A stretch of 64,000 bases of DNA from NCBI GenBank assembly GCA_038883715.1, contig JAVZLS010000002.1:32001-96000 (forward strand), read 5' to 3'. Position 1 is the stretch's first letter. The number at the start of each line of letters is the position of its first letter. The position numbers were made by a program, and so were the translations under genes. Source of the DNA: Candidatus Bathyarchaeia archaeon. Lineage in GTDB: Archaea; Thermoproteota; Bathyarchaeia; Bathyarchaeales; Bathycorpusculaceae. Below the pieces are notes generated by a model, which had not been told where the DNA came from, ran no database searches, and saw nothing but the letters and a program-made list of their open reading frames with translations. Below are positions 6,327 through 60,423 of this stretch, piece after piece.

Positions 6327-7337
6327 ATGAGTGAAGAAAGAGTCACCACTTCCAGTTTAGTTAGTCAAGGAAGAAACATAGGCTACTATGCTGCTCTCTT
6401 ATATGGCGCTGGATACATCTTGGCATTCATAGGCATTCTAACCCTAATCATAATCTTTATCATAGTGTTCCTTGGGGCGGCTGGTCCATTACTTCAGTAT
6501 ATGCCATCCGAGCTTATTGCTAGCTTAGTAATATACCTTATCGCCATGGTATTTGGAATAATTTTCGGCGCGTCCATTATCAGAAGTGCAAAGGCTGTTA
6601 GAACATCCGAGATAAATCTTAATGCTGTGGCATCACCAGTTTCTAGGTTCTCAACGATGCTAATATTATATGGAATAGGCAATACTATTCTAGCATCTGC
6701 TCTTAAAGCATCGCTTGTGGGACCAATCTGTGGAATCATTGGAGCGGTCTTGCTTCTAATGGGTTTCAGAACATATCAAAGTGGAGCTGCAAGCGAATCT
6801 AAACTTATGGGCGCGATTCTAATGTTGGTGTCATTAATCCTCGTATATTTTATAGCAACGCCTCAGTCAATTCTTAACGCTTTATCTGGAGGCTACGGAT
6901 ACGCATACCCTTCCATAATACCAACCGGGTTCTTCCCAGTATCTTATCTCTTTTCAGAGCCAAGGCTTGAATTTATTGCTTTGCTATTAGCGGTTATAGG
7001 CGCACTAATGTTCGCCCTTCGAGTTTTCGGTGAGAAAATGCAGCATGCCATCGCTGGTGTAATTTTGTCTATTAGTGGATTACTTTTTTCCATAGGTGTT
7101 ATGTACATAAACTTTACATCAGCTTCAAGTATAAGCAGTATACTTGGATACCTATCCTCTTACGCGCCATTGCTATCAGTATTGTGGATAACCGTCATTG
7201 GAATGATACTCCTAGGAATAGGCGGCATCATGGCATTAATAGCCTCAATAATACCACTAGTCTCAACCGCAACTCAGCTATCTGCACAAATACCGGCAGC
7301 AGCCCCTCCGCCCCCGCCTCCACCGCCCCCAAGCTGA
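6327..7337 (+). CDS. Uncharacterised multi-pass membrane protein with C-terminal polyproline tail
   Basis: About 8-9 hydrophobic helices; ends in a run of ten prolines. Confidence 0.8.
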   Translation: MSEERVTTSSLVSQGRNIGYYAALLYGAGYILAFIGILTLIIIFIIVFLGAAGPLLQYMPSELIASLVIYLIAMVFGIIFGASIIRSAKAVRTSEINLNAVASPVSRFSTMLILYGIGNTILASALKASLVGPICGIIGAVLLLMGFRTYQSGAASESKLMGAILMLVSLILVYFIATPQSILNALSGGYGYAYPSIIPTGFFPVSYLFSEPRLEFIALLLAVIGALMFALRVFGEKMQHAIAGVILSISGLLFSIGVMYINFTSASSISSILGYLSSYAPLLSVLWITVIGMILLGIGGIMALIASIIPLVSTATQLSAQIPAAAPPPPPPPPPS

Positions 7338-7370
7338 AGTCAAGCAAACGTTCTTTCCACTTTTTTATTT

Positions 7371-8453
7371 TTATGCCATATGTTTTGCCCATATTTGGCA
7401 TGTTCCCTCGATGCTCACCATGCATGCACCTCTTGGCTTCTGTGGGGTACAAGCTTTCATGAATAGTGGGCATTCAGTGGGCTTAATCTTACCAATCATC
7501 ACCAAATGGCATTGGCAGCCCGGCAGCAGATCCGTTCCATTTTTAACTCCGACATTAAATCTTTCCCGTGCCTCATAATTTGCATATTCGCTTTTTAGTT
7601 TTAATGTGGAGTTGGGTAATTTTCCGAGACCACGCCAGTTTCCTCCCACAATTTCAAAAACCTCACTCATGATTTTCTGCGCTTTCACGTTTCCCTCGTA
7701 TGTTACCGCACGGGCGTATTCGTTTTCTAGGCGCGGCTTTTCCTCGTCCAATTGTTTAATAACCATGTAAATGGCGAGTAGAACGTCTAATGGTTCAAAT
7801 CCAGCCACCACTGTTGGCATACGGTAGGCTTTTGGAAACATTTCATAAGCTTTCAAGCCAATGATAGTGCTTACGTGTCCAGGAGCGATGAAACCGTCTA
7901 TGTGGAGGTCTCCTATTCCAAGGAGAAGCTCCATTGCCGGTGGAATCAAACGGTGGGAAACCAGAAAGCTTAGGTTTTCTGGCGGCTTTTTTAGGATTTC
8001 TATGGCTGTTGATGGGGCTGTTGTTTCAAAGCCTATGGCGAAGAAGGCGAACTCTTTATCCGGCTCTTTTTCGGCCATCCTAACGGCGTCTAATGGGCTG
8101 TAAACAACTCGGACATCGGCGCCTTCAGCTTTAGCATCCAACAACGATTTTTCAGAGCCCGGGACGCGGAGGGCATCCCCAAAGCATGTGACGACAACGC
8201 CTTTTAGGGCAAGCTGTACAGCCTCGTCTATTTCGGAGGCTGGTGTTACGCATACCGGGCATCCTGGTCCAGCTATAACCTCAACGTTTTGGGGTAGGAG
8301 GCTTCTCAGCCCAAAATGGGTTATTGTCCACTCGTGAGTGCCGCATACATGGCATATCTTTACGATGTCACGTTTAGGGGCAATTTCATGGATTTTCTCG
8401 ACTACAAGTTTCGCTAATTTTGGATCTCTAAGTTTTTTAAAATATTCGAACAT
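7371..8453 (-). CDS. hypD: Hydrogenase maturation protein HypD
   Basis: CGTH, GPGCPVC, GFETT, PGHVS, GACMVSIEGTC motifs. Confidence 0.97.
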   Translation of the reverse strand: MFEYFKKLRDPKLAKLVVEKIHEIAPKRDIVKICHVCGTHEWTITHFGLRSLLPQNVEVIAGPGCPVCVTPASEIDEAVQLALKGVVVTCFGDALRVPGSEKSLLDAKAEGADVRVVYSPLDAVRMAEKEPDKEFAFFAIGFETTAPSTAIEILKKPPENLSFLVSHRLIPPAMELLLGIGDLHIDGFIAPGHVSTIIGLKAYEMFPKAYRMPTVVAGFEPLDVLLAIYMVIKQLDEEKPRLENEYARAVTYEGNVKAQKIMSEVFEIVGGNWRGLGKLPNSTLKLKSEYANYEARERFNVGVKNGTDLLPGCQCHLVMIGKIKPTECPLFMKACTPQKPRGACMVSIEGTCQIWAKHMA

Positions 8454-26907: not shown

Positions 26908-28179
26908 TTAAATGGAGAACGGGAGAAAGTAAACAAGCAAGGCTGTTGCAAAAGTCGCTATGAAGGATGGAATCACATACTTGTAAACCTTGCCCAGAGG
27001 ACTCTTGAAGTAGTCAGCCGTAAAAACGAAACAGAGATGAGTAGGCGAAATGGTATAGCCAAGATAAGCACTAATATATAGAAGCGCAGCGGTTTTCGGC
27101 GAAAAAGCCAAAACTCCTGTTAAAATTGGCACACTTACGGCTACTGCACCGTGCGGAGAGCCTATGAGAAAACCCAAAACCGCTGGAATTAATGTTAGCA
27201 GTATAACTGTGTCCACGCTTCCATTAGCAACAAACCGCTTGAAAACATCAGAAACTCCAGCAGCAACAATCACATTGCGAAGCAGAAAAGCTCCATAAAC
27301 AGCCAAAGTCACCCCATAAATTCCCCAATCCCTAAGCGGTTTCGCCAGCACTTTGAAGTTTAGACGGGAAATCACGGCTAAAACCACTAACCCCGCAAAA
27401 GTCGCTATTAGAACATCAAACCCTAACCGAGACAAACCATAACTTAAAGCGCCTATAAAAACAGCCACAACAATAGTTGCCATTATAGGAGTGAACGAAA
27501 TAAGGAAACGCTTAAACTCCGAACCATTGTCACTTACTACTTTTTCGGATTCCTCCATGTTTCTTACGATTGAAACTTTCCAGAAACCCACCAAAAAGCC
27601 AACAATAACCATAACCGTAACCGTTGGAATTTGAAGCAAAATAATAGAAAATAGGGATACTCCAGTTAAGGCAGCCGTCACTATCAGCACCTGGCTTAAC
27701 GGGTAAACAGGAAAAATCGTGTGCCTAAACCACAAATTCACATAAGCCTTCCGCTCCGCCTTCAATTTCAACTTTTCAGCCTCCGAATCCACTATGGGAG
27801 CCGACATCAAAGCCCCACCAGCCACCTGAAGGAAACCTATCACGGCTGGAAGCACACTTAAGACAATCTTTGGATTCTTAACAAGGCGGCTCAAGCTCTC
27901 GCTTAATTTTGTGATTTCCCCCGTCTCCTTGTAAAGTTGGCTCAACCACATTATACCAAAAGTCGTAAAAATAACCGATATCGCAAGGAGCCCCTCACTT
28001 TTTAAGGGATTAACGGTTGCGTAGGCTATACTTGGAAAGCTCTGCCAATCAAGCGAAAGCAAAGCCAAAAGAACAGCTGTTGCGTTTAAGGTTATCCCCA
28101 AATTAACACGCCTATAAAGCAAAACGCCAAGAAAGCAAAAGGAAACAACCACAGAGGTCAACGGGTCCAGCAGTCCCAA
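26908..28179 (-). CDS. DUF401 family membrane transporter-like protein
   Basis: GGALMSAP, NLWFRH, SPTHLC motifs; polytopic. Confidence 0.85.
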   Translation of the reverse strand: MGLLDPLTSVVVSFCFLGVLLYRRVNLGITLNATAVLLALLSLDWQSFPSIAYATVNPLKSEGLLAISVIFTTFGIMWLSQLYKETGEITKLSESLSRLVKNPKIVLSVLPAVIGFLQVAGGALMSAPIVDSEAEKLKLKAERKAYVNLWFRHTIFPVYPLSQVLIVTAALTGVSLFSIILLQIPTVTVMVIVGFLVGFWKVSIVRNMEESEKVVSDNGSEFKRFLISFTPIMATIVVAVFIGALSYGLSRLGFDVLIATFAGLVVLAVISRLNFKVLAKPLRDWGIYGVTLAVYGAFLLRNVIVAAGVSDVFKRFVANGSVDTVILLTLIPAVLGFLIGSPHGAVAVSVPILTGVLAFSPKTAALLYISAYLGYTISPTHLCFVFTADYFKSPLGKVYKYVIPSFIATFATALLVYFLPFSI

Positions 28180-28268
28180 ATCAAGGCATCCCTTTCAAAC
28201 ATTTAAAAACCAAAATATACGCCAAACACTTAATCCTTTCCATAAAACACCACACAAAATGTGGTCGC

Positions 28269-28685
28269 ATGAAAAGAAAAGCTTTCATCTCCGGACCAAT
28301 CCAAGGCATGGAAACAAAACAATCCTACAGAGAAACCATAAGACGCATCTGCACCCGCTGTGGATACGAACCAATCGACCCGTGGCAACGCGAAAAAATA
28401 ATTTACAAAGGCACAGAAAACGGCTGGTGGCAAAAAGTTCCAGCAGCAGACTTCATAAAAAGAGATTTAGAAGATATAGAAAAATGCGATATCCTAATCG
28501 CCTACATGCCAAAACTATCAGCCGGAACATGCATGGAACTCTTCCACGCAAAAATGAAGGGGAAGAAAACTATATGCATATGCAAAATCAAAAACCCAAG
28601 CCCATGGATAACCACTCACTCAGACATCATCCTCAAAGATATCAAACAACTTGAACAAGCATTAAAAGCCATAAACCCTTATTAA
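28269..28685 (+). CDS. Nucleoside 2-deoxyribosyltransferase / RCL-like N-glycosidase family protein
   Basis: AFISGPI, RDLEDIEKCDILIA, SAGTCMEL. Confidence 0.8.
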   Translation: MKRKAFISGPIQGMETKQSYRETIRRICTRCGYEPIDPWQREKIIYKGTENGWWQKVPAADFIKRDLEDIEKCDILIAYMPKLSAGTCMELFHAKMKGKKTICICKIKNPSPWITTHSDIILKDIKQLEQALKAINPY

Positions 28686-28699
28686 CACAGCTCTGAAGC

Positions 28700-29578
28700 T
28701 TAAAGCTTCAATGCAGCCCTAAGCCTAGCCGACCTAGCCCTAGGATTTTCCTCAACCTCCTCCTTAGATGGCCTAACAGGCTTTTTCGTCAAAATTTTAA
28801 CAGCACCTTCTTTGTCTTTCTGTCTCAGAAAATTTTTTACAATACGATCTTCCAAGGAATGAAAGGAAATAACCACAAGCCTACCCCCCTTATCCAATAT
28901 GTCAAGAGCTTGAGGCAAAGCCTTCGCCAAATTCTGCAACTCATTGTTCACAGCTATTCTCAAAGCCTGAAATGTCTTAGTGGCAAAATGAATCCGCCCC
29001 CTATGATACCAAGAAGGCGTCGCCTTCTCAACAGCCATAACCAAATCCACAGTAGTCCTCAACGGCCTAGACCGCACAATTTCTTCGGCTATCCTCCGCG
29101 CAAACCGCTCTTGCCCATAAACCCTTAAAATCTTCACAATATCCCTCAAACTCCAAAGATTCACTATGACTTCAGCAGTCAACGGATTTTCTGGGTTATA
29201 CCGCATATCAAGAGGCTCATTCCGGAGAAAAGAAAAACCTCGACCACTCCCCTCTAAATGCCAGCTTGACAAACCCAAATCAAACAAAACCCCAGAAACA
29301 CGCCTAAAGGCATACCTATCAACCATATCGCCCAAATTGGCAAAGTTACCGCAAACGAGGATTAGACGTTTTTCGTAATCGGTGCCTTCAACTCTCCTCT
29401 TAAGCCTCTCCAAAATTACAGGGTCAGCGTCCAGCCCCAAAACTCTACCGGAAGGCCCCGTCCGCTCCAAAACAGCCAAAGCATGACCACCCAAACCCAC
29501 AGTACAATCAACAAAATCCTCACCAGGCTTAGGATCAAGAAAAAGAATAACCTCGTCCTTCATAACTGGCAAGTGCAA
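28700..29578 (-). CDS. rsmH: 16S rRNA m4C1402 methyltransferase RsmH (MraW), bacterial type
   Basis: All RsmH motifs present: HLPVMKDEV, DCTVGLGGH, DLGLSS, RGFSF..PLDMR, YGQERFARRIA, ATKTFQALRIAVNNEL, ISFHSLEDRIVK, NPRARSARLR; start TTG 29578. Confidence 0.95.
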   Translation of the reverse strand: MHLPVMKDEVILFLDPKPGEDFVDCTVGLGGHALAVLERTGPSGRVLGLDADPVILERLKRRVEGTDYEKRLILVCGNFANLGDMVDRYAFRRVSGVLFDLGLSSWHLEGSGRGFSFLRNEPLDMRYNPENPLTAEVIVNLWSLRDIVKILRVYGQERFARRIAEEIVRSRPLRTTVDLVMAVEKATPSWYHRGRIHFATKTFQALRIAVNNELQNLAKALPQALDILDKGGRLVVISFHSLEDRIVKNFLRQKDKEGAVKILTKKPVRPSKEEVEENPRARSARLRAALKL

Positions 29579-29659
29579 CCCTAGACACCACAATCCCACA
29601 TAGATTTCGAAGCAACACGCATAAGTAAAAGCCGCATTTTATTTTAAAATTTACGAAAG

Positions 29660-29734
29660 TGCGGCCGCCGGGATTTGAACCCGGGTCGTCAGCGTGGCAG
29701 GCTGATGTCCTAGTCCAGGCTAGACTACGGCCGC
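29660..29734 (-). tRNA. tRNA-Gly (GCC), no intron, CCA not encoded
   Basis: GCGGCCG acceptor stem, D-loop AGCCTGGACTAGG, anticodon arm TCAGC-CTGCCAC-GCTGA, T-arm CCGGGTTCAAATCCCGG. Confidence 0.97.
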
Positions 29735-29913
29735 CTCGATAATTTCTGGTTATCCTCTTATCCACGTTTTCCTAAAAAGCGTTATGTTCTGTGTTGTTAA
29801 TAGCAAATGTCAATTTTGTGTTGGGTGGGAGACTGCAAAATTGATAGCCCCCTCTAGTTTTCTGTGTTGCTTTATAGTCAAGTTTTTATTGCTTGTTGGC
29901 TTTTGTGTTTTTG

Positions 29914-30801
29914 ATGTTTGGTAAGGAGTTTTTTGTTAGTCGTTATCGGTTGTTGGGTTGGGAGTTTAGGGATGTTGCGCCAAAACAGGCCATTAGGGTT
30001 AATGCCATGAATGTTAAGGGCGTCAATATTTTGGAGAGGCTTAGGGGTTTGGGGGTTGAGCTTGAGGAAATCCCGTTTCTTCGTGGTGGTTACTGGGTTA
30101 CGCGTTCAGATTTTTCTGTCGGCGCCACTGTGGAGTATCTTTTGGGCTATTATTCCATACAGGAGGCTGCGGCTCAAATCCCAGCAACATTGTTCACAGA
30201 TTTAAGGAGCAAGACTGTTTTAGATGCTTGTGCCGCTCCAGGCGGCAAGACTGTTCAGTTGGCGGATTTGATGGGGAACACTGGCGTCATTGTGGCTTTG
30301 GATGTTGATGGACGGAGGCTCAATGCCTTACAAAATCAGTTGGAGCGTTGCCGTGTGAAAAACACCATTGTTTATCGGCTGGATGCCCGAAAAACTTCAA
30401 AGCTGGGTTTGAAGTTTGATAGAATATTGCTTGATGTGCCATGTTCTGGCAACTTCGCCACCGACAAAGGCTGGTTTAGGCGGAGAACGCTGGCTGATGT
30501 TAAGAGAAACGCTAGGCTTCAAAGGGAGATGCTCGCTGAAGCCGCCAAGGTTCTAAAGGAAGACGGGGAAATAGTTTATGCCACATGCTCCCTAGAGCCG
30601 GAAGAAGACGAACTGAACATTGACTGGGCTGTGAAGAATCTAGGCCTTGAAACTGTAGAGATAGAATGCTACGGAGAGGAGGCGCCAACAGAAATCTTCG
30701 GCAAAAAACTAGATGATTCCGTTGGGAATTGTCGCCGCATATGGCCTGGTGAAACCCAAGGCTTTTTTTCATGCAAACTTAAAAAGCGCAAACATGGGTG
30801 A
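29914..30801 (+). CDS. RsmB/RsmF/Nop2 family RNA m5C methyltransferase (catalytic part)
   Basis: SIQEAAA, DACAAPGGKT, DVPCSG, YATCSLEPEE (both catalytic Cys); likely ATG at 29914. Confidence 0.92.
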   Translation: MFGKEFFVSRYRLLGWEFRDVAPKQAIRVNAMNVKGVNILERLRGLGVELEEIPFLRGGYWVTRSDFSVGATVEYLLGYYSIQEAAAQIPATLFTDLRSKTVLDACAAPGGKTVQLADLMGNTGVIVALDVDGRRLNALQNQLERCRVKNTIVYRLDARKTSKLGLKFDRILLDVPCSGNFATDKGWFRRRTLADVKRNARLQREMLAEAAKVLKEDGEIVYATCSLEPEEDELNIDWAVKNLGLETVEIECYGEEAPTEIFGKKLDDSVGNCRRIWPGETQGFFSCKLKKRKHG

Positions 30802-31300
30802 AATGGTCATGGCGAAGTGTATAGAGGATTTTGCCGAACTTTTCGGTGTAAAACTTAGCTTGGACAAAAGTCTGGTAGTTAAGAAGAAAGGTAAGTTTTT
30901 CTTGCTCAGCCCGAAATTGAAGAAATTGGCTGGGAAAGGCAGAGACTGGCTTTTTGCTGGAATATATCTTGGCAAAGTCGAGAATGGCAGGTTCTTTCCA
31001 AGTTTTCCCTTGCTTTTCATGATTGCAGGCCAAGCCCAAAACAAGGTGATTGTTGATGATAAGGCAGCTTGGCTTTTCGTCTGCAGCAGAGACATATTTA
31101 AGGAGGGAATATTGGAGGCTTACGGCTCAAGAGGTAAAGGCGCCTACACATTGGTTTTTAATCGCTATGGCGAGTGCCTCGGTTTTGGTAGAATAAAAAG
31201 GGACTTAGACAAGGCGGAAAGCGGCGTGGTCGTCAAAAACATTTTGGACATTGGAGATTTCTTAAGAAGGGAGCGAAGCACAAAAATTTCGGAAATCTAA
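30794..31300 (+). CDS. Nip7/PUA-like RNA-binding protein (resembles the RsmF C-terminal domains)
   Basis: GIYLGK...FFPSF, VDDKAAWLF..RDI, GECLGFG, KNILDIGDFLRRE; overlaps the methyltransferase stop. Confidence 0.75.
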   Translation: MGEMVMAKCIEDFAELFGVKLSLDKSLVVKKKGKFFLLSPKLKKLAGKGRDWLFAGIYLGKVENGRFFPSFPLLFMIAGQAQNKVIVDDKAAWLFVCSRDIFKEGILEAYGSRGKGAYTLVFNRYGECLGFGRIKRDLDKAESGVVVKNILDIGDFLRRERSTKISEI

Positions 31301-41954: not shown

Positions 41955-43874
41955 TTGGCGCCCAACACTGAAAGGGAGAAAATCGAAATAAGTAAATACA
42001 TACTTGAGCATGTCCCAAAAGAGGCTGAAGTCACAAGGGTAGAATATGAAGGCCCAATGCTGGCGGTCTACGCAAAAAGACCGGAAATCCTCGTGGAGCA
42101 GAGCAGCCTAATCGCAGACATAGTAAACGTCATCAGAAAAAGAATAGTCGTCCGCTCAGACCCATCTGTAAGGCTTCCAGAGAAAGAAGCAGAGAAAATA
42201 GCTCGAGAAATAATTCCGCCAGAGGCTGAAGTCACAGACGTGTACTTTGATCCAAGTCTTGGCGAAATAATCATTGAGGCTAAAAAGCCGGGGCTAGTCA
42301 TTGGAAAAAATGGGGCTGTCTTGCAGGAAATTATAAAGAGGACAAAGTGGCGCCCCCATGTTTTGAGAAGCCCACCGCTTCGCTCTAAGATTATTGCGCA
42401 CATGCGTCACTATCTCCATTCTGAGAGCAAGGAAAGGGAGCGGAACCTCCGCACATTTGGCGAAAGAATCTTCAGACCAAAAGTCTTCGAGGTCGGAGAT
42501 GTTCGAATCACGCCCTTAGGCGGCGTTCAAGAGGTTGGACGCTCGGCTTTTCTTGTGCAGACAAGAGAAAGCAACATCCTCTTGGACTGCGGCATAAATC
42601 CGGGCTCGTCGAAGCCTTTTGAGGCTTTTCCAAGGTTTGACCATCCAGCTTTCGAGATAGACTCGCTGGACGCTGTTGTTATAAGCCACGCCCACCTCGA
42701 CCACTGCGGCTTAGTGCCATTCCTATACAAGTATGGCTACGAAGGCCCCGTTTACTGTTCCGCTCCAACATCCAACCTCATGACCCTGCTTCAGCTTGAC
42801 TATTTAGATGTGGCTAGCAAGCAGGGTATAATCCCGCCCTATGACCAAAAGGATGTTCGAGAATGCGTCCTTCACACGATTCCGCTTCGTTACGGCGTTG
42901 TAACGGATATTGCCCCAGACGTGCGGCTGACACTGCATAATGCCGGGCACATTTTAGGCTCTTCAATAGTGCATTTGCACATTGGCGAAGGCTTGCACAA
43001 CATTGTTTATACTGGTGACTACAAGTATGCGCGAACCATGCTTCTAGAGGCGGCAACAGCCGAATTTCCAAGAGTTGAAACTGTCATAACTGAAAGCACT
43101 TATGGCGGTTCGGAGGACATAATGCCTTCAAGGGTTGAGGCTGAAGAACGTCTAACAAAAATAGTAAATGAAACCCTAGAGAAAAGAGGCAAGGTCTTAA
43201 TTCCAGTTCCAGCTGTTGGCAGAGCGCAAGAAATAATGCTTGTTTTGGACGGCTACATGAAGCGTGGGCTGATGAAGGAGGCTCCAGTCTTCATTGAAGG
43301 TATGATTTCTGAAGCTACGGCAATCCACACGGCTTATCCAGAATACTTGGGCAGGGAAGTCAGAAACAGCATCCTCCACGATGGGGTGAACCCCTTCGAG
43401 TCGGACTACTTCACAGTTGTTGAGCATCCAAGCGTTAGACAAAGCGTGATTGACGGAGAGCCGTGCATAATCATGGCTACTTCAGGCATGCTTGAGGGCG
43501 GACCAGTAATAGAATACTTCAAAAGCCTAGCAGAAAATGAGATAAACACTATAGTCTTTGTAAGCTACCAGATTGAGGGCACTTTAGGTAGACGTGTTCA
43601 AAAGGGCATAAACGAGGTGGCAATGATTGACAGCGAGGGCAAAATGAGTGTTGTAAAAGTGAGGATGCGTGTAGAATCCATAGAAGGCTTTTCGGGGCAC
43701 TCTGATAGGCGGCAGATAATAAACTACATAACACATCTGAAGCCTAGGCCAGAACGGGTAATAGTTTGCCACGGTGAGCGGGCAAAAATAGCCAGCATAT
43801 CCAATTTCATAGAGAAAAAGTGTGGAATCCAGAGCTTTGCGCCCGCGGTTATGGAAACAATTAGGCTGCTGTAG
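41955..43874 (+). CDS. fttA: aCPSF1/FttA beta-CASP ribonuclease (transcription termination)
   Basis: Two KH domains, HAHLDH, AGHILGS, FSGHSD, HGE; conserved next to psmB. Confidence 0.96.
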   Translation: MAPNTEREKIEISKYILEHVPKEAEVTRVEYEGPMLAVYAKRPEILVEQSSLIADIVNVIRKRIVVRSDPSVRLPEKEAEKIAREIIPPEAEVTDVYFDPSLGEIIIEAKKPGLVIGKNGAVLQEIIKRTKWRPHVLRSPPLRSKIIAHMRHYLHSESKERERNLRTFGERIFRPKVFEVGDVRITPLGGVQEVGRSAFLVQTRESNILLDCGINPGSSKPFEAFPRFDHPAFEIDSLDAVVISHAHLDHCGLVPFLYKYGYEGPVYCSAPTSNLMTLLQLDYLDVASKQGIIPPYDQKDVRECVLHTIPLRYGVVTDIAPDVRLTLHNAGHILGSSIVHLHIGEGLHNIVYTGDYKYARTMLLEAATAEFPRVETVITESTYGGSEDIMPSRVEAEERLTKIVNETLEKRGKVLIPVPAVGRAQEIMLVLDGYMKRGLMKEAPVFIEGMISEATAIHTAYPEYLGREVRNSILHDGVNPFESDYFTVVEHPSVRQSVIDGEPCIIMATSGMLEGGPVIEYFKSLAENEINTIVFVSYQIEGTLGRRVQKGINEVAMIDSEGKMSVVKVRMRVESIEGFSGHSDRRQIINYITHLKPRPERVIVCHGERAKIASISNFIEKKCGIQSFAPAVMETIRLL

Positions 43875-60356: not shown

Positions 60357-60423
60357 TCAGTTCGCCCGTCGAGTCATATCACAGCTTATGCCAAAGCTCT
60401 ATTGACTCTCCAGCTCATCATCC
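60357..60423 (-). ncRNA. Box C/D sRNA predicted to guide 2'-O-methylation of 16S C1402 (E. coli numbering)
   Basis: GG-AUGAUGA(C)-GCUGGAG-AGUCAAUAGA-GCUU-UGGCAU-AAGC-UGUGAUAUGACU-CGACGGGCG-AA-CUGA(D). Intergenic, with perfect C and D boxes, an internal K-turn hairpin, and a guide complementary to CGCCCGUCG. Confidence 0.85.

What the first reader, a model, noticed from the sequence alone, without database searches (positions are those of the whole stretch)
28700..29734. Bacterial rsmH immediately downstream of tRNA-Gly; sequence style recalls Parcubacteria/CPR RsmH
Seen: rsmH lies about 80 bp from the tRNA 3' end, a classic integration position. It lacks the mraZ/ftsL/ftsI neighbours of the bacterial dcw cluster and is flanked by archaeal-type genes. 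It shares the local strand skew of its neighbours, which argues for long residence rather than contamination. From memory, the variant motifs DLGLSSWHL, LRNEPLDMRYNP..PLTA and ATPSWYHR resemble Parcubacteria (Nealsonbacteria-like) RsmH, a group that includes episymbionts of archaea. Inference: cross-domain transfer, possibly from a CPR symbiont to an archaeal host.
Basis: partly seen in the sequence, partly recalled or inferred. Interest (0 to 1): 0.78.

Follow-up and report, generated by a model that had tools for sequence, protein, structure and literature searches.

The report
Bacterial rRNA methylase gene in an archaeon
A hot-spring archaeon (Bathyarchaeia) carries a working-looking copy of the bacterial gene rsmH, which methylates one key base of the ribosome's decoding site; the gene came long ago from tiny "CPR" bacteria, and it may now cooperate with a native archaeal guide RNA that targets the same base.

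Summary
Window 28700-29578 (-) encodes a full-length RsmH (TIGR00006, 293 bits against a cut-off of 154). It lies 80 nt downstream of tRNA-Gly(GCC), among archaeal genes and without dcw neighbours.

It is not contamination. The locus is syntenic in 23 related genome loci, and a contig from an independent study bridges the gene borders at even depth.

In archaea the gene is narrowly distributed. I found it in 3 of 401 genomes of the phylum and 16 of 81 of the family. Thirteen of these fall in one FttA-tree clade of 14 genomes.

ML trees nest all Bathyarchaeia RsmH inside a Patescibacteria (CPR) clade (95/93). The nearest named bacterium is a Parcubacteria MAG whose copy sits in mraZ-rsmH-PBP-mur context. 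Three separate Bathyarchaeia placements suggest one to three acquisitions, but AU tests do not reject a single one (p 0.09-0.20).

Within the genus dN/dS is 0.06-0.22, and G+C matches the host.

RsmI was not found. A conserved box C/D sRNA in the same window is predicted to 2'-O-methylate the same C1402. A hybrid route to m4Cm1402 is therefore plausible but unproven.

First-stage readers of this scan noted the same rsmH-after-tRNA pattern on two other genomes.

The parts
28700..29578 (-). rsmH coding sequence (292 aa from the TTG at 29578; the open frame runs up to a GTG at 29599)
   Evidence: PF01795 E 2e-93 and TIGR00006 292.8 bits against cut-off 154.3. Best solved relative is T. maritima MraW 1m6y, E 2.5e-79, aligned end to end. 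Start inferred from the alignment of congeners and the 292-aa database copy. dN/dS 0.06-0.22.
29635..29652 (-). A/T-rich TATA-box-like element between the tRNA and rsmH; candidate archaeal promoter of rsmH (inferred)
   Evidence: An AAAyrTTAAAAT-like block is kept about 55-75 nt upstream of the start in most genus members, whichever tRNA lies upstream. No transcript data are available.
29659..29734 (-). tRNA-Gly(GCC), a native archaeal tRNA gene directly upstream of rsmH
   Evidence: ARAGORN. The orthologous tRNA lies beside the same NDT/DUF401 genes in rsmH-less relatives G021 and G016.
28269..28685 (+). Nucleoside 2-deoxyribosyltransferase-like (NDT) gene, convergent with rsmH; the most stable neighbour of rsmH in the clade
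   Evidence: PF05014 E 1.8e-9. It lies within about 1.2 kb of the rsmH stop in 20 of 23 main-clade loci. It is also present in rsmH-less G021 and G019, so it was not co-transferred.
29893..31300 (+). Nop2/Sun (RsmB/F-like) m5C methyltransferase ORF (29893-30801) overlapping a PUA-domain ORF (30713-31300), divergent from tRNA-rsmH; context only
   Evidence: PF01189 E 6e-46 and TIGR00446 225.8 bits; PUA PF03657 E 6e-15. In genus g6 rsmH is followed about 20-30 nt later, on the same strand, by this gene.
60357..60423 (-). Box C/D sRNA whose D-guide pairs with 16S rRNA 1400-1408; predicted to direct 2'-O-methylation of C1402, the base RsmH N4-methylates
   Evidence: C box AUGAUGA, D box CUGA, guide CGACGGGCG(AA). 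The fifth nucleotide upstream of box D pairs with C1402 of the genome's own 16S. Boxes and guide core are kept in 28 copies from 26 of 41 relatives; the guide core has one substitution in each of two copies. Rfam gives only a weak sR2 hit, 16.7 bits against 42.

Best explanation
The gene encodes a functional RsmH, the SAM-dependent methyltransferase that in bacteria puts a methyl group on N4 of C1402 of 16S rRNA at the ribosomal P site. An ancestor of one subclade of a single Bathyarchaeia family acquired it from a Parcubacteria-type (Patescibacteria/CPR) bacterium. It has since been inherited vertically at one locus, next to a native tRNA-Gly(GCC) and an NDT-like gene. It gained an archaeal-style promoter and has been kept under purifying selection.

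The most likely mechanism, which is inferred, is that it methylates N4 of the equivalent C1402 of the archaeal 16S rRNA. The surrounding sequence CCGCCCGUC is the same as in bacteria. The host lacks RsmI but has an ancestral box C/D guide RNA predicted to 2'-O-methylate the same cytidine. The two together could therefore build m4Cm1402 by a mixed bacterial-archaeal route.

Shown: identity of the gene, its distribution, its phylogenetic placement, synteny, selection and conservation of the target sequence. Inferred: the activity on archaeal 30S, the promoter and the cooperation with the sRNA.
For: Family membership. All 35 columns invariant across 25 RsmH sequences are kept in the window protein.

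Not an artefact: the block IMPase-metallophosphatase-HSP20-SWIM-2 membrane genes-DUF401-NDT-rsmH, or the rsmH/NDT pair alone, recurs in 23 loci of independent genomes. A 2093-nt contig from another study spans 27800-29685, and depth is alike on both sides of the tRNA (191 and 203).

Restricted distribution:
- 12 of 13 congeners, 3 of 11 other genera of the family, 0 of 16 genomes of other families of the order.
- In 301 genomes of the class, full-length copies occur only in this family.
- 3 of 401 genomes in the phylum.
- 16 of 81 genomes in the family.

Species tree from FttA/aCPSF1, 50 genomes: one clade (SH-aLRT 100) holds 13 rsmH+ genomes and 1 rsmH- genome.

Donor:
- 96-row tree: a clade of 13 Bathyarchaeia + a Parcubacteria MAG + 2 unnamed rows at 99/96.
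- 69-row tree: Bathyarchaeia plus Patescibacteria-labelled rows form a 60-row clade at 95/93, apart from Chloroflexota, Acidobacteriota and Clostridia.
- The Parcubacteria copy lies in an mraZ-rsmH-small ORF-PBP-Mur ligase cluster.
- The second-best representative (61% identity) is labelled Gribaldobacteria.

Selection and age: dN/dS 0.075-0.222 in 10 within-genus comparisons with G000 and 0.062-0.183 in 6 other pairs. dS is saturated between genera. G+C is 45.5%.

Target: the genome's 16S reads CACACACCGCCCGTCG, and this stretch is identical in rsmH+ and rsmH- relatives.

Partner: RsmI (TIGR00096) was not found in G000, which is 90% complete. For the C1402-directed sRNA.

Literature: in E. 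coli, m4Cm1402 is made by RsmH plus RsmI (passages of PMC11551388). The eukaryotic equivalents of Cm1402 are listed, and the plant one is assigned a box C/D guide (Table 1 of PMC11542601).
Against: No biochemical or transcript evidence exists. No listed run is reliably RNA.

The immediate bacterial sister of the window's own clade is unresolved (node 81/73).

Some labels of named rows are automatic MAG labels. A few rows labelled Gammaproteobacteria fell among Patescibacteria in the FastTree. In the 96-row tree two Dehalococcoidales and a spirochaete sat in the unresolved wider 56-row clade.

The species tree rests on one protein and a quick search.

One genome inside the rsmH+ clade (G705, 91% complete) lacks both rsmH and the NDT gene. 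This could be loss or an assembly gap.

The sRNA also exists in rsmH-less relatives, so it says nothing about RsmH activity itself.
Confidence: 0.8

Rival explanations
1. The same family captured rsmH two or three separate times from related Parcubacteria, rather than once. The window's clade is one event, genus g36 and its kin a second, and genus g263 a third.
For: In the gene trees g36-type sequences (5 rows, 100/100) nest inside a 28-row clade (99/94). That clade holds all 6 Nealsonbacteria-labelled rows and the Parcubacteria MAG, while the main clade (100/99) lies outside it. G684 pairs with another Patescibacteria-labelled row. None of 200 bootstrap trees has Bathyarchaeia as one group. 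g36 and G684 carry rsmH at different, fully archaeal loci: CGI-121, THUMP, ABCE1 and Topo VI B in one, and FBPase, ArgRS and deoxyhypusine synthase in the other. Both lie outside the main clade in the FttA tree, among rsmH-less genomes.
Against: AU tests do not reject a single Bathyarchaeia group (p 0.202 for 13 rows; p 0.092 for 17 rows). The G684 pairing has SH-aLRT of only 49. The hosts of unnamed rows are unknown, so some 'bacterial' rows might be archaeal. Relocation after a single gain, plus losses, is possible.
Confidence: 0.5
2. The enzyme has been retargeted in the archaeon. It would methylate another RNA (23S rRNA, tRNA or another 16S cytidine), or act mainly as an assembly factor, not at C1402.
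For: The archaeal 30S differs from the bacterial one in proteins around helix 44. The mitochondrial homologue METTL15 shows that the family can adapt to a different ribosome (PDB hits 7pnv and 8ipi). There are no activity data.
Against: The protein scores well above the TIGR00006 equivalog cut-off and keeps every invariant column. The target sequence 1399-1407 is unchanged. Purifying selection is as expected for a conserved function.
Confidence: 0.12
3. The gene arrived on an integrative element that used the 3' end of tRNA-Gly(GCC) as its attachment site. The present position is the scar of that event.
For: rsmH starts 80 nt after the tRNA 3' end. In rsmH-less G021 and G016 the orthologous tRNA-Gly(GCC) directly adjoins the same NDT/DUF401 genes, so the gene sits where an insertion at that tRNA would put it. 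A tRNA lies within 200 nt upstream on the same strand in 13 of 23 main-clade loci.
Against: There is no integrase or other mobile gene. No direct repeat of the tRNA 3' part flanks rsmH; the repeats found are 12-31 nt chance-like matches. The tRNA is inverted relative to G021. The upstream tRNA differs among congeners: Gly-GCC in 2, Gly-CCC in 7, Glu-CTC in 3, Gly-TCC in 1. This fits later recombination between tRNA genes as well as it fits integration. Ten of 23 loci have no tRNA nearby.
Confidence: 0.2
4. The stretch is bacterial contamination or a chimeric join in a metagenome-assembled genome.
For: The genome is a 41-contig assembly with 2% estimated contamination. Logan contigs break at the tRNA.
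Against: The same gene sits in the same archaeal neighbourhood in 23 loci from separate genomes. A single contig from another study bridges NDT-rsmH-tRNA, and depth is even. The break at the tRNA coincides with a depth spike above 8000 that is typical of a repeat shared by many organisms. G+C and skew are host-like.
Confidence: 0.01
5. RsmH is an old, vertically inherited archaeal gene, or it moved from Bathyarchaeia to CPR bacteria.
For: The Bathyarchaeia clades are old; dS is saturated between genera.
Against: The gene is found in 3 of 401 genomes of the phylum and only in part of one family. The Bathyarchaeia branches are nested within bacterial diversity, and the bacterial copies sit in the ancestral dcw context. 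The gene rings in 10 of 10 bacterial and 0 of 4 archaeal control genomes.
Confidence: 0.02

Closest known systems
Bacterial RsmH (MraW), 16S rRNA (cytosine1402-N4)-methyltransferase; solved examples T. maritima 1m6y/1n2x, T. thermophilus 1wg8, E. coli 3tka
   Same: Full-length, gap-poor alignment (E 2.5e-79 to 1m6y). The glycine-rich SAM loop (DCTVGLGGH), DLGxSS, RGFSF, EPLDMR, HFATKTFQALRI and SFHSLEDRIVK blocks are all present. The score is above the equivalog cut-off.
   Different: The host is an archaeon. There are no mraZ/ftsL/ftsI neighbours. The gene stands alone behind a tRNA with an archaeal-looking promoter. The partner RsmI was not found.
Parcubacteria/Patescibacteria RsmH (Parcubacteria-group MAG locus L057; proteins labelled Gribaldobacteria and Nealsonbacteria)
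   Same: 59-61% identity to the window protein and a shared DLGxSSWHLE-type motif. They fall in the same ML clade.
   Different: The bacterial copies lie in the dcw cluster. The window's clade is a separate, long branch with 100/99 support.
METTL15, the mitochondrial RsmH homologue (12S rRNA m4C839; PDB 7pnv, 7pnx, 8ipi)
   Same: It is a precedent for a bacterial RsmH working in a ribosome of another lineage after transfer. It is homologous over about 250 residues (E about 1e-50).
   Different: METTL15 came with the mitochondrial endosymbiont and acts on a bacterial-type ribosome. Here the recipient ribosome is archaeal.
Box C/D-guided Cm at the C1402 equivalent in eukaryotes (yeast 18S Cm1639, human Cm1703, Arabidopsis Cm1645 with snoRNA U43)
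   Same: An RNA-guided 2'-O-methylation of the same universally conserved cytidine (Table 1 of PMC11542601). The window's sRNA obeys the fifth-nucleotide rule for C1402.
   Different: Eukaryotes do not add the N4-methyl in cytoplasmic ribosomes. Combination with an RsmH would give the bacterial product m4Cm by a different pair of enzymes.
Reported gene transfers from Patescibacteria to DPANN archaea (PMC12455944, passages read)
   Same: Same donor phylum and direction, bacteria to archaea.
   Different: The recipients there are ultra-small DPANN archaea, and the genes named in the passages I read are an ABC transporter and glyoxalases. Here the recipient is Bathyarchaeia and the gene is a ribosome-modifying enzyme.

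Membership tests
RsmH / MraW (PF01795; NCBIfam TIGR00006 equivalog) | Full-length match to the family profile above the curated cut-off | tested here: met
   PF01795 313.6 bits (cut-off 27), profile positions 4-307 of 309. TIGR00006 292.8 bits (cut-off 154.3).
RsmH / MraW | Conserved SAM-binding and catalytic-pocket residues as in solved structures | tested here: met
   All 35 invariant columns of a 25-sequence alignment are kept (H9, D31, T33, G37, G38, H39, D59, D107, G109 and the rest). End-to-end alignment to 1m6y without loss of blocks. No residue-level structural model was made.
RsmH / MraW | N4-methylation of C1402 of small-subunit rRNA | not testable with these tools
   Only the substrate sequence could be checked: CCGCCCGUC (1399-1407) is present in the genome's 16S.
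RsmH / MraW | Usual bacterial context: first genes of the dcw cluster (mraZ-rsmH-ftsL-ftsI). This is typical, not defining. | tested here: not met
   Neighbours are archaeal or housekeeping genes. No transpeptidase in the genome. The only MraZ hit is borderline and partial, on another contig. The nearest bacterial homologue does have this context.
m4Cm1402 pathway (RsmH + RsmI) | Presence of the 2'-O-methyltransferase RsmI | tested here: not met
   TIGR00096 has no match in G000, which is 90% complete. A box C/D sRNA aimed at C1402 is present instead.
Archaeal box C/D sRNA (for the partner RNA at 60357-60423) | C and D boxes, a guide of 9 or more bp to rRNA ending 2-3 nt from box D, and conservation | tested here: met
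   AUGAUGA ... CUGA with a 9-bp guide to 16S 1400-1408. 28 copies in 26 of 41 relatives keep the boxes and the guide core, apart from one substitution in each of two copies. C' and D' boxes are degenerate. The best Rfam match, sR2, is below threshold. Expression was not tested.
Gene of Patescibacteria (CPR) origin | Nested within a supported clade of CPR sequences in an ML tree that includes other bacteria | tested here: met
   60-row clade at 95/93 holding all Bathyarchaeia rows and only Patescibacteria-labelled named rows. 16-row clade at 99/96 with the Parcubacteria MAG. Caveat: many rows are unnamed.
tRNA-targeted integrative element | Integrase gene and a duplicated tRNA 3' segment (att) at the far border | tested here: not met
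   No integrase among the neighbours. No repeat of the tRNA 3' part in 27900-30000.

The most novel reading that the evidence does not exclude
One family of hot-spring and subsurface Bathyarchaeia captured rsmH from Nealsonbacteria-like Parcubacteria on two or three separate occasions. Each time the gene was kept because, together with an ancestral box C/D guide RNA for Cm1402, it lets an archaeal ribosome carry the bacterial and mitochondrial decoding-centre mark m4Cm1402. This would be a hybrid pathway of a bacterial stand-alone enzyme and an archaeal RNP. Repeated capture of the same gene from the same donor group would point to lasting physical contact, possibly episymbiosis, between these CPR bacteria and Bathyarchaeia.
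Probability: 0.2. Interest if true: 0.75.

Novelty: new member of a known kind. Interest (0 to 1): 0.5.

Why it matters
RsmH is treated as a bacterial (and mitochondrial) enzyme. A stably inherited, selected copy in an archaeal lineage means that some archaeal ribosomes probably carry m4C, or m4Cm, at the P-site cytidine 1402.

This is a clean natural experiment on how portable decoding-centre modifications are between domains. The universal target sequence explains why the transfer could work.

The likely donor adds an informational, ribosome-modifying gene to the short list of CPR-to-archaea transfers, and Bathyarchaeia to the list of recipients.

The co-occurrence with a C1402-directed box C/D sRNA gives a directly testable prediction. 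m4Cm should be present in 16S rRNA of rsmH+ genera and Cm alone in their rsmH-less sister genera.

Public annotation already names these proteins RsmH. My searches found no paper holding both RsmH and Bathyarchae* and none on archaeal RsmH transfer among the 7 listed for RsmH + archaea + horizontal gene transfer. The annotation is therefore known, but the evolutionary reading does not appear to be in print in the library searched.

Tried and rejected
Contamination or a chimeric join is rejected.

Deep archaeal inheritance is rejected.

att sites or an integrase at the tRNA: nothing found.

The sigma-70 promoter and terminator scan gave counts at shuffle level, 3 against 2.1 and 1 against 1.7, and does not apply to archaea anyway.

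tRNA remolding as the reason for different anticodons upstream of rsmH is rejected. The anticodon arms differ throughout, so these are different genes.

Monophyly of all Bathyarchaeia RsmH is neither shown nor rejected (AU p 0.202 and 0.092).

Expression: no RNA holder is listed. Two runs carry a metatranscriptomic library label but the tool marks them as probably DNA, so nothing can be said.

G705, the one rsmH-less genome inside the rsmH+ clade, also lacks the NDT gene. Loss and an assembly gap cannot be told apart.

Co-variation of the 16S decoding region with rsmH: none. Positions 1390-1408 are identical in 2 rsmH+ and 3 rsmH- genomes. A 1410 C/U difference does not track rsmH.

I made no structure prediction, complex prediction or atlas search, because sequence homology to solved RsmH structures is already decisive. 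Supplementary tables of PMC12455944 (its Table S10) could name further CPR-to-archaea genes, but supplements were closed and I did not see them.
Full report
WHAT IS THERE

The minus strand of the window carries an open frame at 28700-29599. It is a complete RsmH. Pfam PF01795 covers profile positions 4-307 of 309 (E 2e-93). The NCBIfam equivalog TIGR00006 scores 292.8 bits against a cut-off of 154.3. The best solved relatives are T. maritima MraW (1m6y, E 2.5e-79, aligned over residues 2-291), T. thermophilus 1wg8, E. coli RsmH 3tka and mitochondrial METTL15.

An alignment with congeners shows that the real start is most likely the TTG at 29578, an ATG in two species. This gives M-H-L-P-V-M... 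and 292 aa, the length of the identical database protein P0001. ARAGORN finds a single tRNA in the window, tRNA-Gly(GCC) at 29659-29734 on the same strand.

The neighbours are the following:
- a DUF401/TIGR00529 membrane protein
- a nucleoside-2-deoxyribosyltransferase-like (NDT) gene, convergent with rsmH
- a Nop2/Sun m5C methyltransferase with an overlapping PUA ORF, divergent from rsmH
- HisRS
- tRNA-intron endonuclease

No dcw gene is near. The whole genome has no transpeptidase hit. Its only MraZ hit is a borderline fragment on another contig.

WHOSE GENOME, AND IS THE GENE REALLY PART OF IT

The window is part of a 1.33-Mb, 41-contig genome that is 90% complete. The closest homologues that carry names are all labelled Bathyarchaeia, Bathyarchaeota or Bathyarchaeales. 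More than 100 clusters at 71-88% identity are listed.

I cut out rsmH loci from related genomes and mapped the window's neighbour proteins onto them. This covered 23 loci of the window's RsmH clade, including the window. The convergent NDT gene lies within about 1.2 kb of the rsmH stop in 20 of them. Most of these also keep the whole block IMPase-metallophosphatase-HSP20-SWIM-two small membrane genes-DUF401-NDT-rsmH.

Public runs that hold the stretch are labelled hot-spring metagenomes and come from six studies. I laid four of them. In one, from a study other than the best holder's, a single 2093-nt contig covers 27800-29685. That contig runs from DUF401 through NDT and rsmH into the tRNA. 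The mean contig depth is 191 on that side and 203 on the Nop2 side. The contigs break only inside the tRNA, where summed depth jumps above 8000, as expected for a sequence shared by many organisms. A chimeric join or contamination is therefore excluded as far as such data can exclude it.

DISTRIBUTION

| Group searched | Genomes with RsmH |
|---|---|
| Congeners (same genus) | 12 of 13; the miss is 64% complete |
| Other genera of the family | 3 of 11 |
| Other families of the order | 0 of 16 |
| Class sample (301 genomes) | 24 hits, 13 over the Pfam cut-off |
| Phylum sample, TIGR00006 at E <= 1e-10 | 3 of 401, all in this family |
| Family sample | 16 of 81, one cut by a contig end |
| Control genomes | 10 of 10 bacteria, 0 of 4 archaea |

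Of the 13 class hits over the cut-off, only 6 are full-length and 2 are cut by contig ends. All 8 belong to this one family. The remainder are matches of 60 to about 80 profile positions in the SAM-binding end of other methyltransferases.

For a species tree I used FttA/aCPSF1 (window 41955-43874), which was found in 78 of 81 family genomes. I used 50 of those 78. These were the 30 best-scoring loci the tool returned, plus 20 I chose: the two remaining rsmH+ genomes and 18 rsmH-less ones down the ranking. In the quick ML tree one clade with SH-aLRT 100 holds 13 rsmH+ genomes and one rsmH-less genome. The latter is G705, which is 91% complete and also lacks the NDT gene. Three further rsmH+ genomes (G195 of g36, G684 of g263, and the partial G324 of g42) lie outside that clade among rsmH-less genomes. 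This is a single-protein tree and should be read as provisional.

DONOR

A search of 1.84 billion 50%-identity representatives gave best hits of 59-61% identity, falling smoothly to 45-50%. The second best is labelled Candidatus Gribaldobacteria.

Its best non-archaeal loci were a Parcubacteria-group MAG (59%), a MAG labelled Saccharibacteria (55%) and a Patescibacteria-group MAG (54%). Chloroflexota and others followed at 49% or less. The Parcubacteria locus has the textbook order mraZ-rsmH-small ORF-PBP transpeptidase-Mur ligase. It is therefore a bona fide bacterial copy, and the direction of transfer is bacterium to archaeon.

I built three careful IQ-TREE analyses (LG+C20+F+G4 PMSF).

(i) 96 rows. 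All 13 Bathyarchaeia rows fall in a 16-row clade (99/96) with the Parcubacteria MAG and two unnamed proteins. That clade sits inside a 26-row clade (92/89) whose other named rows are all Patescibacteria. The wider 56-row clade is poorly resolved and also holds two Dehalococcoidales and one spirochaete. The bootstrap had not fully settled.

(ii) 59 rows with seven more Bathyarchaeia. The main clade of 17 rows has 100/99 support. The g36 pair is sister to the Parcubacteria MAG at 100/96. G684 falls elsewhere in the same 32-row clade (95/83).

(iii) 69 rows, adding relatives of the Parcubacteria protein found. Six of these are labelled Nealsonbacteria, one Parcubacteria CG2_30 and one Bathycorpusculaceae.
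- A 60-row clade (95/93) holds every Bathyarchaeia row, and its named bacteria are all Patescibacteria. It is separated from Chloroflexota, Acidobacteriota and Clostridia, and also from Magasanik- and Uhrbacteria.
- The g36-type archaeal clade (5 rows, 100/100) nests in a 28-row clade (99/94) with all six Nealsonbacteria rows.
- The window's clade (11 rows, 100/99) lies just outside, and its sister is unresolved (81/73).
- G684 pairs with a Patescibacteria-labelled row (UFBoot 100, SH-aLRT 49).

'Nealsonbacteria-like' is accurate for the second archaeal lineage and only approximate for the window's own.

ONE GAIN OR SEVERAL

The gene trees show three archaeal placements, and none of 200 bootstrap trees unites them. 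The g36 and G684 copies lie at other, thoroughly archaeal loci. These loci carry KEOPS CGI-121, THUMP, ABCE1 and Topo VI B in one case, and class V FBPase, ArgRS and deoxyhypusine synthase in the other. Both genomes fall outside the main clade in the FttA tree.

Against this, AU tests do not reject one archaeal group (p 0.202 with 13 rows; p 0.092 with 17 rows). I leave it at one to three acquisitions, with roughly even odds for more than one.

AGE AND SELECTION

Nei-Gojobori dN/dS against the window copy is 0.075-0.222 in ten within-genus comparisons. It is 0.062-0.183 in six other close pairs. Between genera dS is saturated. G+C (45.5%) and GC3 (44%) match the host. All 35 invariant columns of a 25-sequence RsmH alignment are kept. 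The gene is old in this lineage and is maintained by selection.

THE tRNA

In rsmH-less relatives of the same family the orthologous tRNA-Gly(GCC) lies directly beside the same neighbour genes. Its body is near-identical, with compensatory acceptor-stem changes. In G021 the order is DUF401, NDT, tRNA. In G016 it is DUF401, tRNA. The gene therefore sits exactly where an insertion at the 3' side of that tRNA would place it, although the tRNA-rsmH unit is inverted relative to G021.

No integrase and no att-like repeat remain. Within the genus the tRNA upstream of rsmH is not constant. It is Gly-GCC in 2 loci, Gly-CCC in 7, Glu-CTC in 3, and Gly-TCC in genus g6. In all, 13 of 23 main-clade loci have a same-strand tRNA within 200 nt.

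In G013 and the window the spacer downstream of the tRNA is clearly homologous. The anticodon arm and everything upstream differ. This points to recombination between tRNA-Gly isoacceptor genes, which share their 5' and 3' parts, as the cause of the rearrangements.

An A/T-rich block (window 29635-29652) is kept upstream of rsmH in most congeners whichever tRNA precedes it. I read it as the gene's own archaeal TATA/BRE promoter. This is an inference without transcript data.

HOW IT MOST LIKELY WORKS

In E. coli, C1402 carries m4Cm, made by RsmH (N4) and RsmI (2'-O) (passages of PMC11551388 citing Kimura and Suzuki 2010). The genome's own 16S rRNA (another contig) reads CACACACCGCCCGTCG. By the 1392-1406 primer-site numbering, which I recalled, this gives C1399-C1407 identical to bacteria and G at 1408. 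The stretch is the same in three rsmH-less and two rsmH+ relatives. That identity explains why a bacterial enzyme could act on it. RsmI (TIGR00096) was not found in the genome.

An earlier first-stage note on this window (e1-6364657) led me to the RNA at 60357-60423 (-). It has a C box AUGAUGA and a D box CUGA. Its guide CGACGGGCG pairs with 16S 1400-1408, and the fifth nucleotide upstream of box D pairs with C1402. The RNA occurs in 26 of 41 relatives, including rsmH-less genomes and four other families. The boxes and the guide core are kept in all 28 copies, apart from one substitution in each of two copies, and the internal stem shows compensatory changes. Rfam gives only a sub-threshold sR2 match.

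Box C/D-guided Cm at the C1402 equivalent is known in eukaryotes (Table 1 of PMC11542601). The host therefore very probably already makes Cm1402 through its sRNP. RsmH would add the N4-methyl and give the bacterial product m4Cm1402 by a mixed pathway. This last step is inference, and nothing here measures the modification.

In genus g6 rsmH is followed about 20-30 nt later, on the same strand, by the Nop2/Sun-PUA pair. That pair resembles RsmF-type 16S m5C methyltransferases of the same helix. The arrangement hints at a functional link but is no more than a hint.

COMPARISON WITH WHAT IS KNOWN, AND NOVELTY

As an enzyme this is an ordinary RsmH. Public annotation already names these archaeal proteins so.

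Three things are unusual:
- the host domain
- the CPR source
- the likely pairing with an RNA-guided partner instead of RsmI

Transfers from Patescibacteria to DPANN archaea have been reported (passages of PMC12455944). I found no paper that holds both RsmH and Bathyarchae* (0 papers). Among the 7 papers listed for RsmH + archaea + horizontal gene transfer (of 8 that hold all three terms), none treats archaeal RsmH transfer (listing only). First-stage readers of this scan noted the same rsmH-after-tRNA pattern on two other genomes (e1-6368590, e1-6368593). I did not examine those.

I class the finding as a new member of a known kind, of moderate interest. It would rise if m4Cm1402 is demonstrated in an archaeal ribosome, or if repeated capture from Nealsonbacteria-like donors is confirmed.

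Noticed in passing
window 60357-60423 (-): A conserved box C/D sRNA whose D-guide predicts 2'-O-methylation of 16S C1402. It is present in 26 of 41 relatives across five families, and no Rfam family reaches threshold.
   Followed up: partly
window 29893-31300 (+); also L045, L049, L050, L195-L199: The Nop2/Sun methyltransferase ORF and the following PUA-domain ORF overlap by about 35-90 nt in a different frame in most relatives. They resemble the N- and C-terminal parts of RsmF. The cause could be a conserved split, a frameshift or overlapping genes. In G701 the two matches do not overlap.
   Followed up: no
upstream of rsmH in loci L038-L055 (genus g1): The tRNA gene in front of rsmH changes between congeners (Gly-GCC, Gly-CCC, Glu-CTC) while the spacer downstream stays homologous. 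In G013 versus the window the breakpoint falls inside the tRNA. tRNA isoacceptor genes seem to act as recombination breakpoints.
   Followed up: partly
L142 2857-2872 (16S rRNA of G000, contig C1): Position 1408 of the 16S rRNA is G (A in E. coli) in this genome and in the four relatives checked. The 1410 position is C in G000 and U in the others, with a matching change on the 3' strand.
   Followed up: no
G006 (L053 and L054): This genome (74% complete, 3% contamination) holds two rsmH loci with full flanking synteny. One is nearly identical to G013's locus and one to G009's. The bin probably mixes two species.
   Followed up: no
L038 (G001) 7257-8040: In G001 the DUF401 gene is reduced to its C-terminal quarter and the NDT gene to fragments, while rsmH next to them is intact. 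This looks like a local deletion.
   Followed up: no
window 29609 region; run X2/X3 contigs: A strain in other hot-spring runs lacks 19 nt of the tRNA-rsmH spacer, just upstream of the rsmH start.
   Followed up: no
G000:C7:3758-3859 (L233): An 80-aa ORF with a borderline partial MraZ-family match (23.6 bits). It is probably an AbrB/SpoVT-fold protein and is unrelated to rsmH.
   Followed up: no
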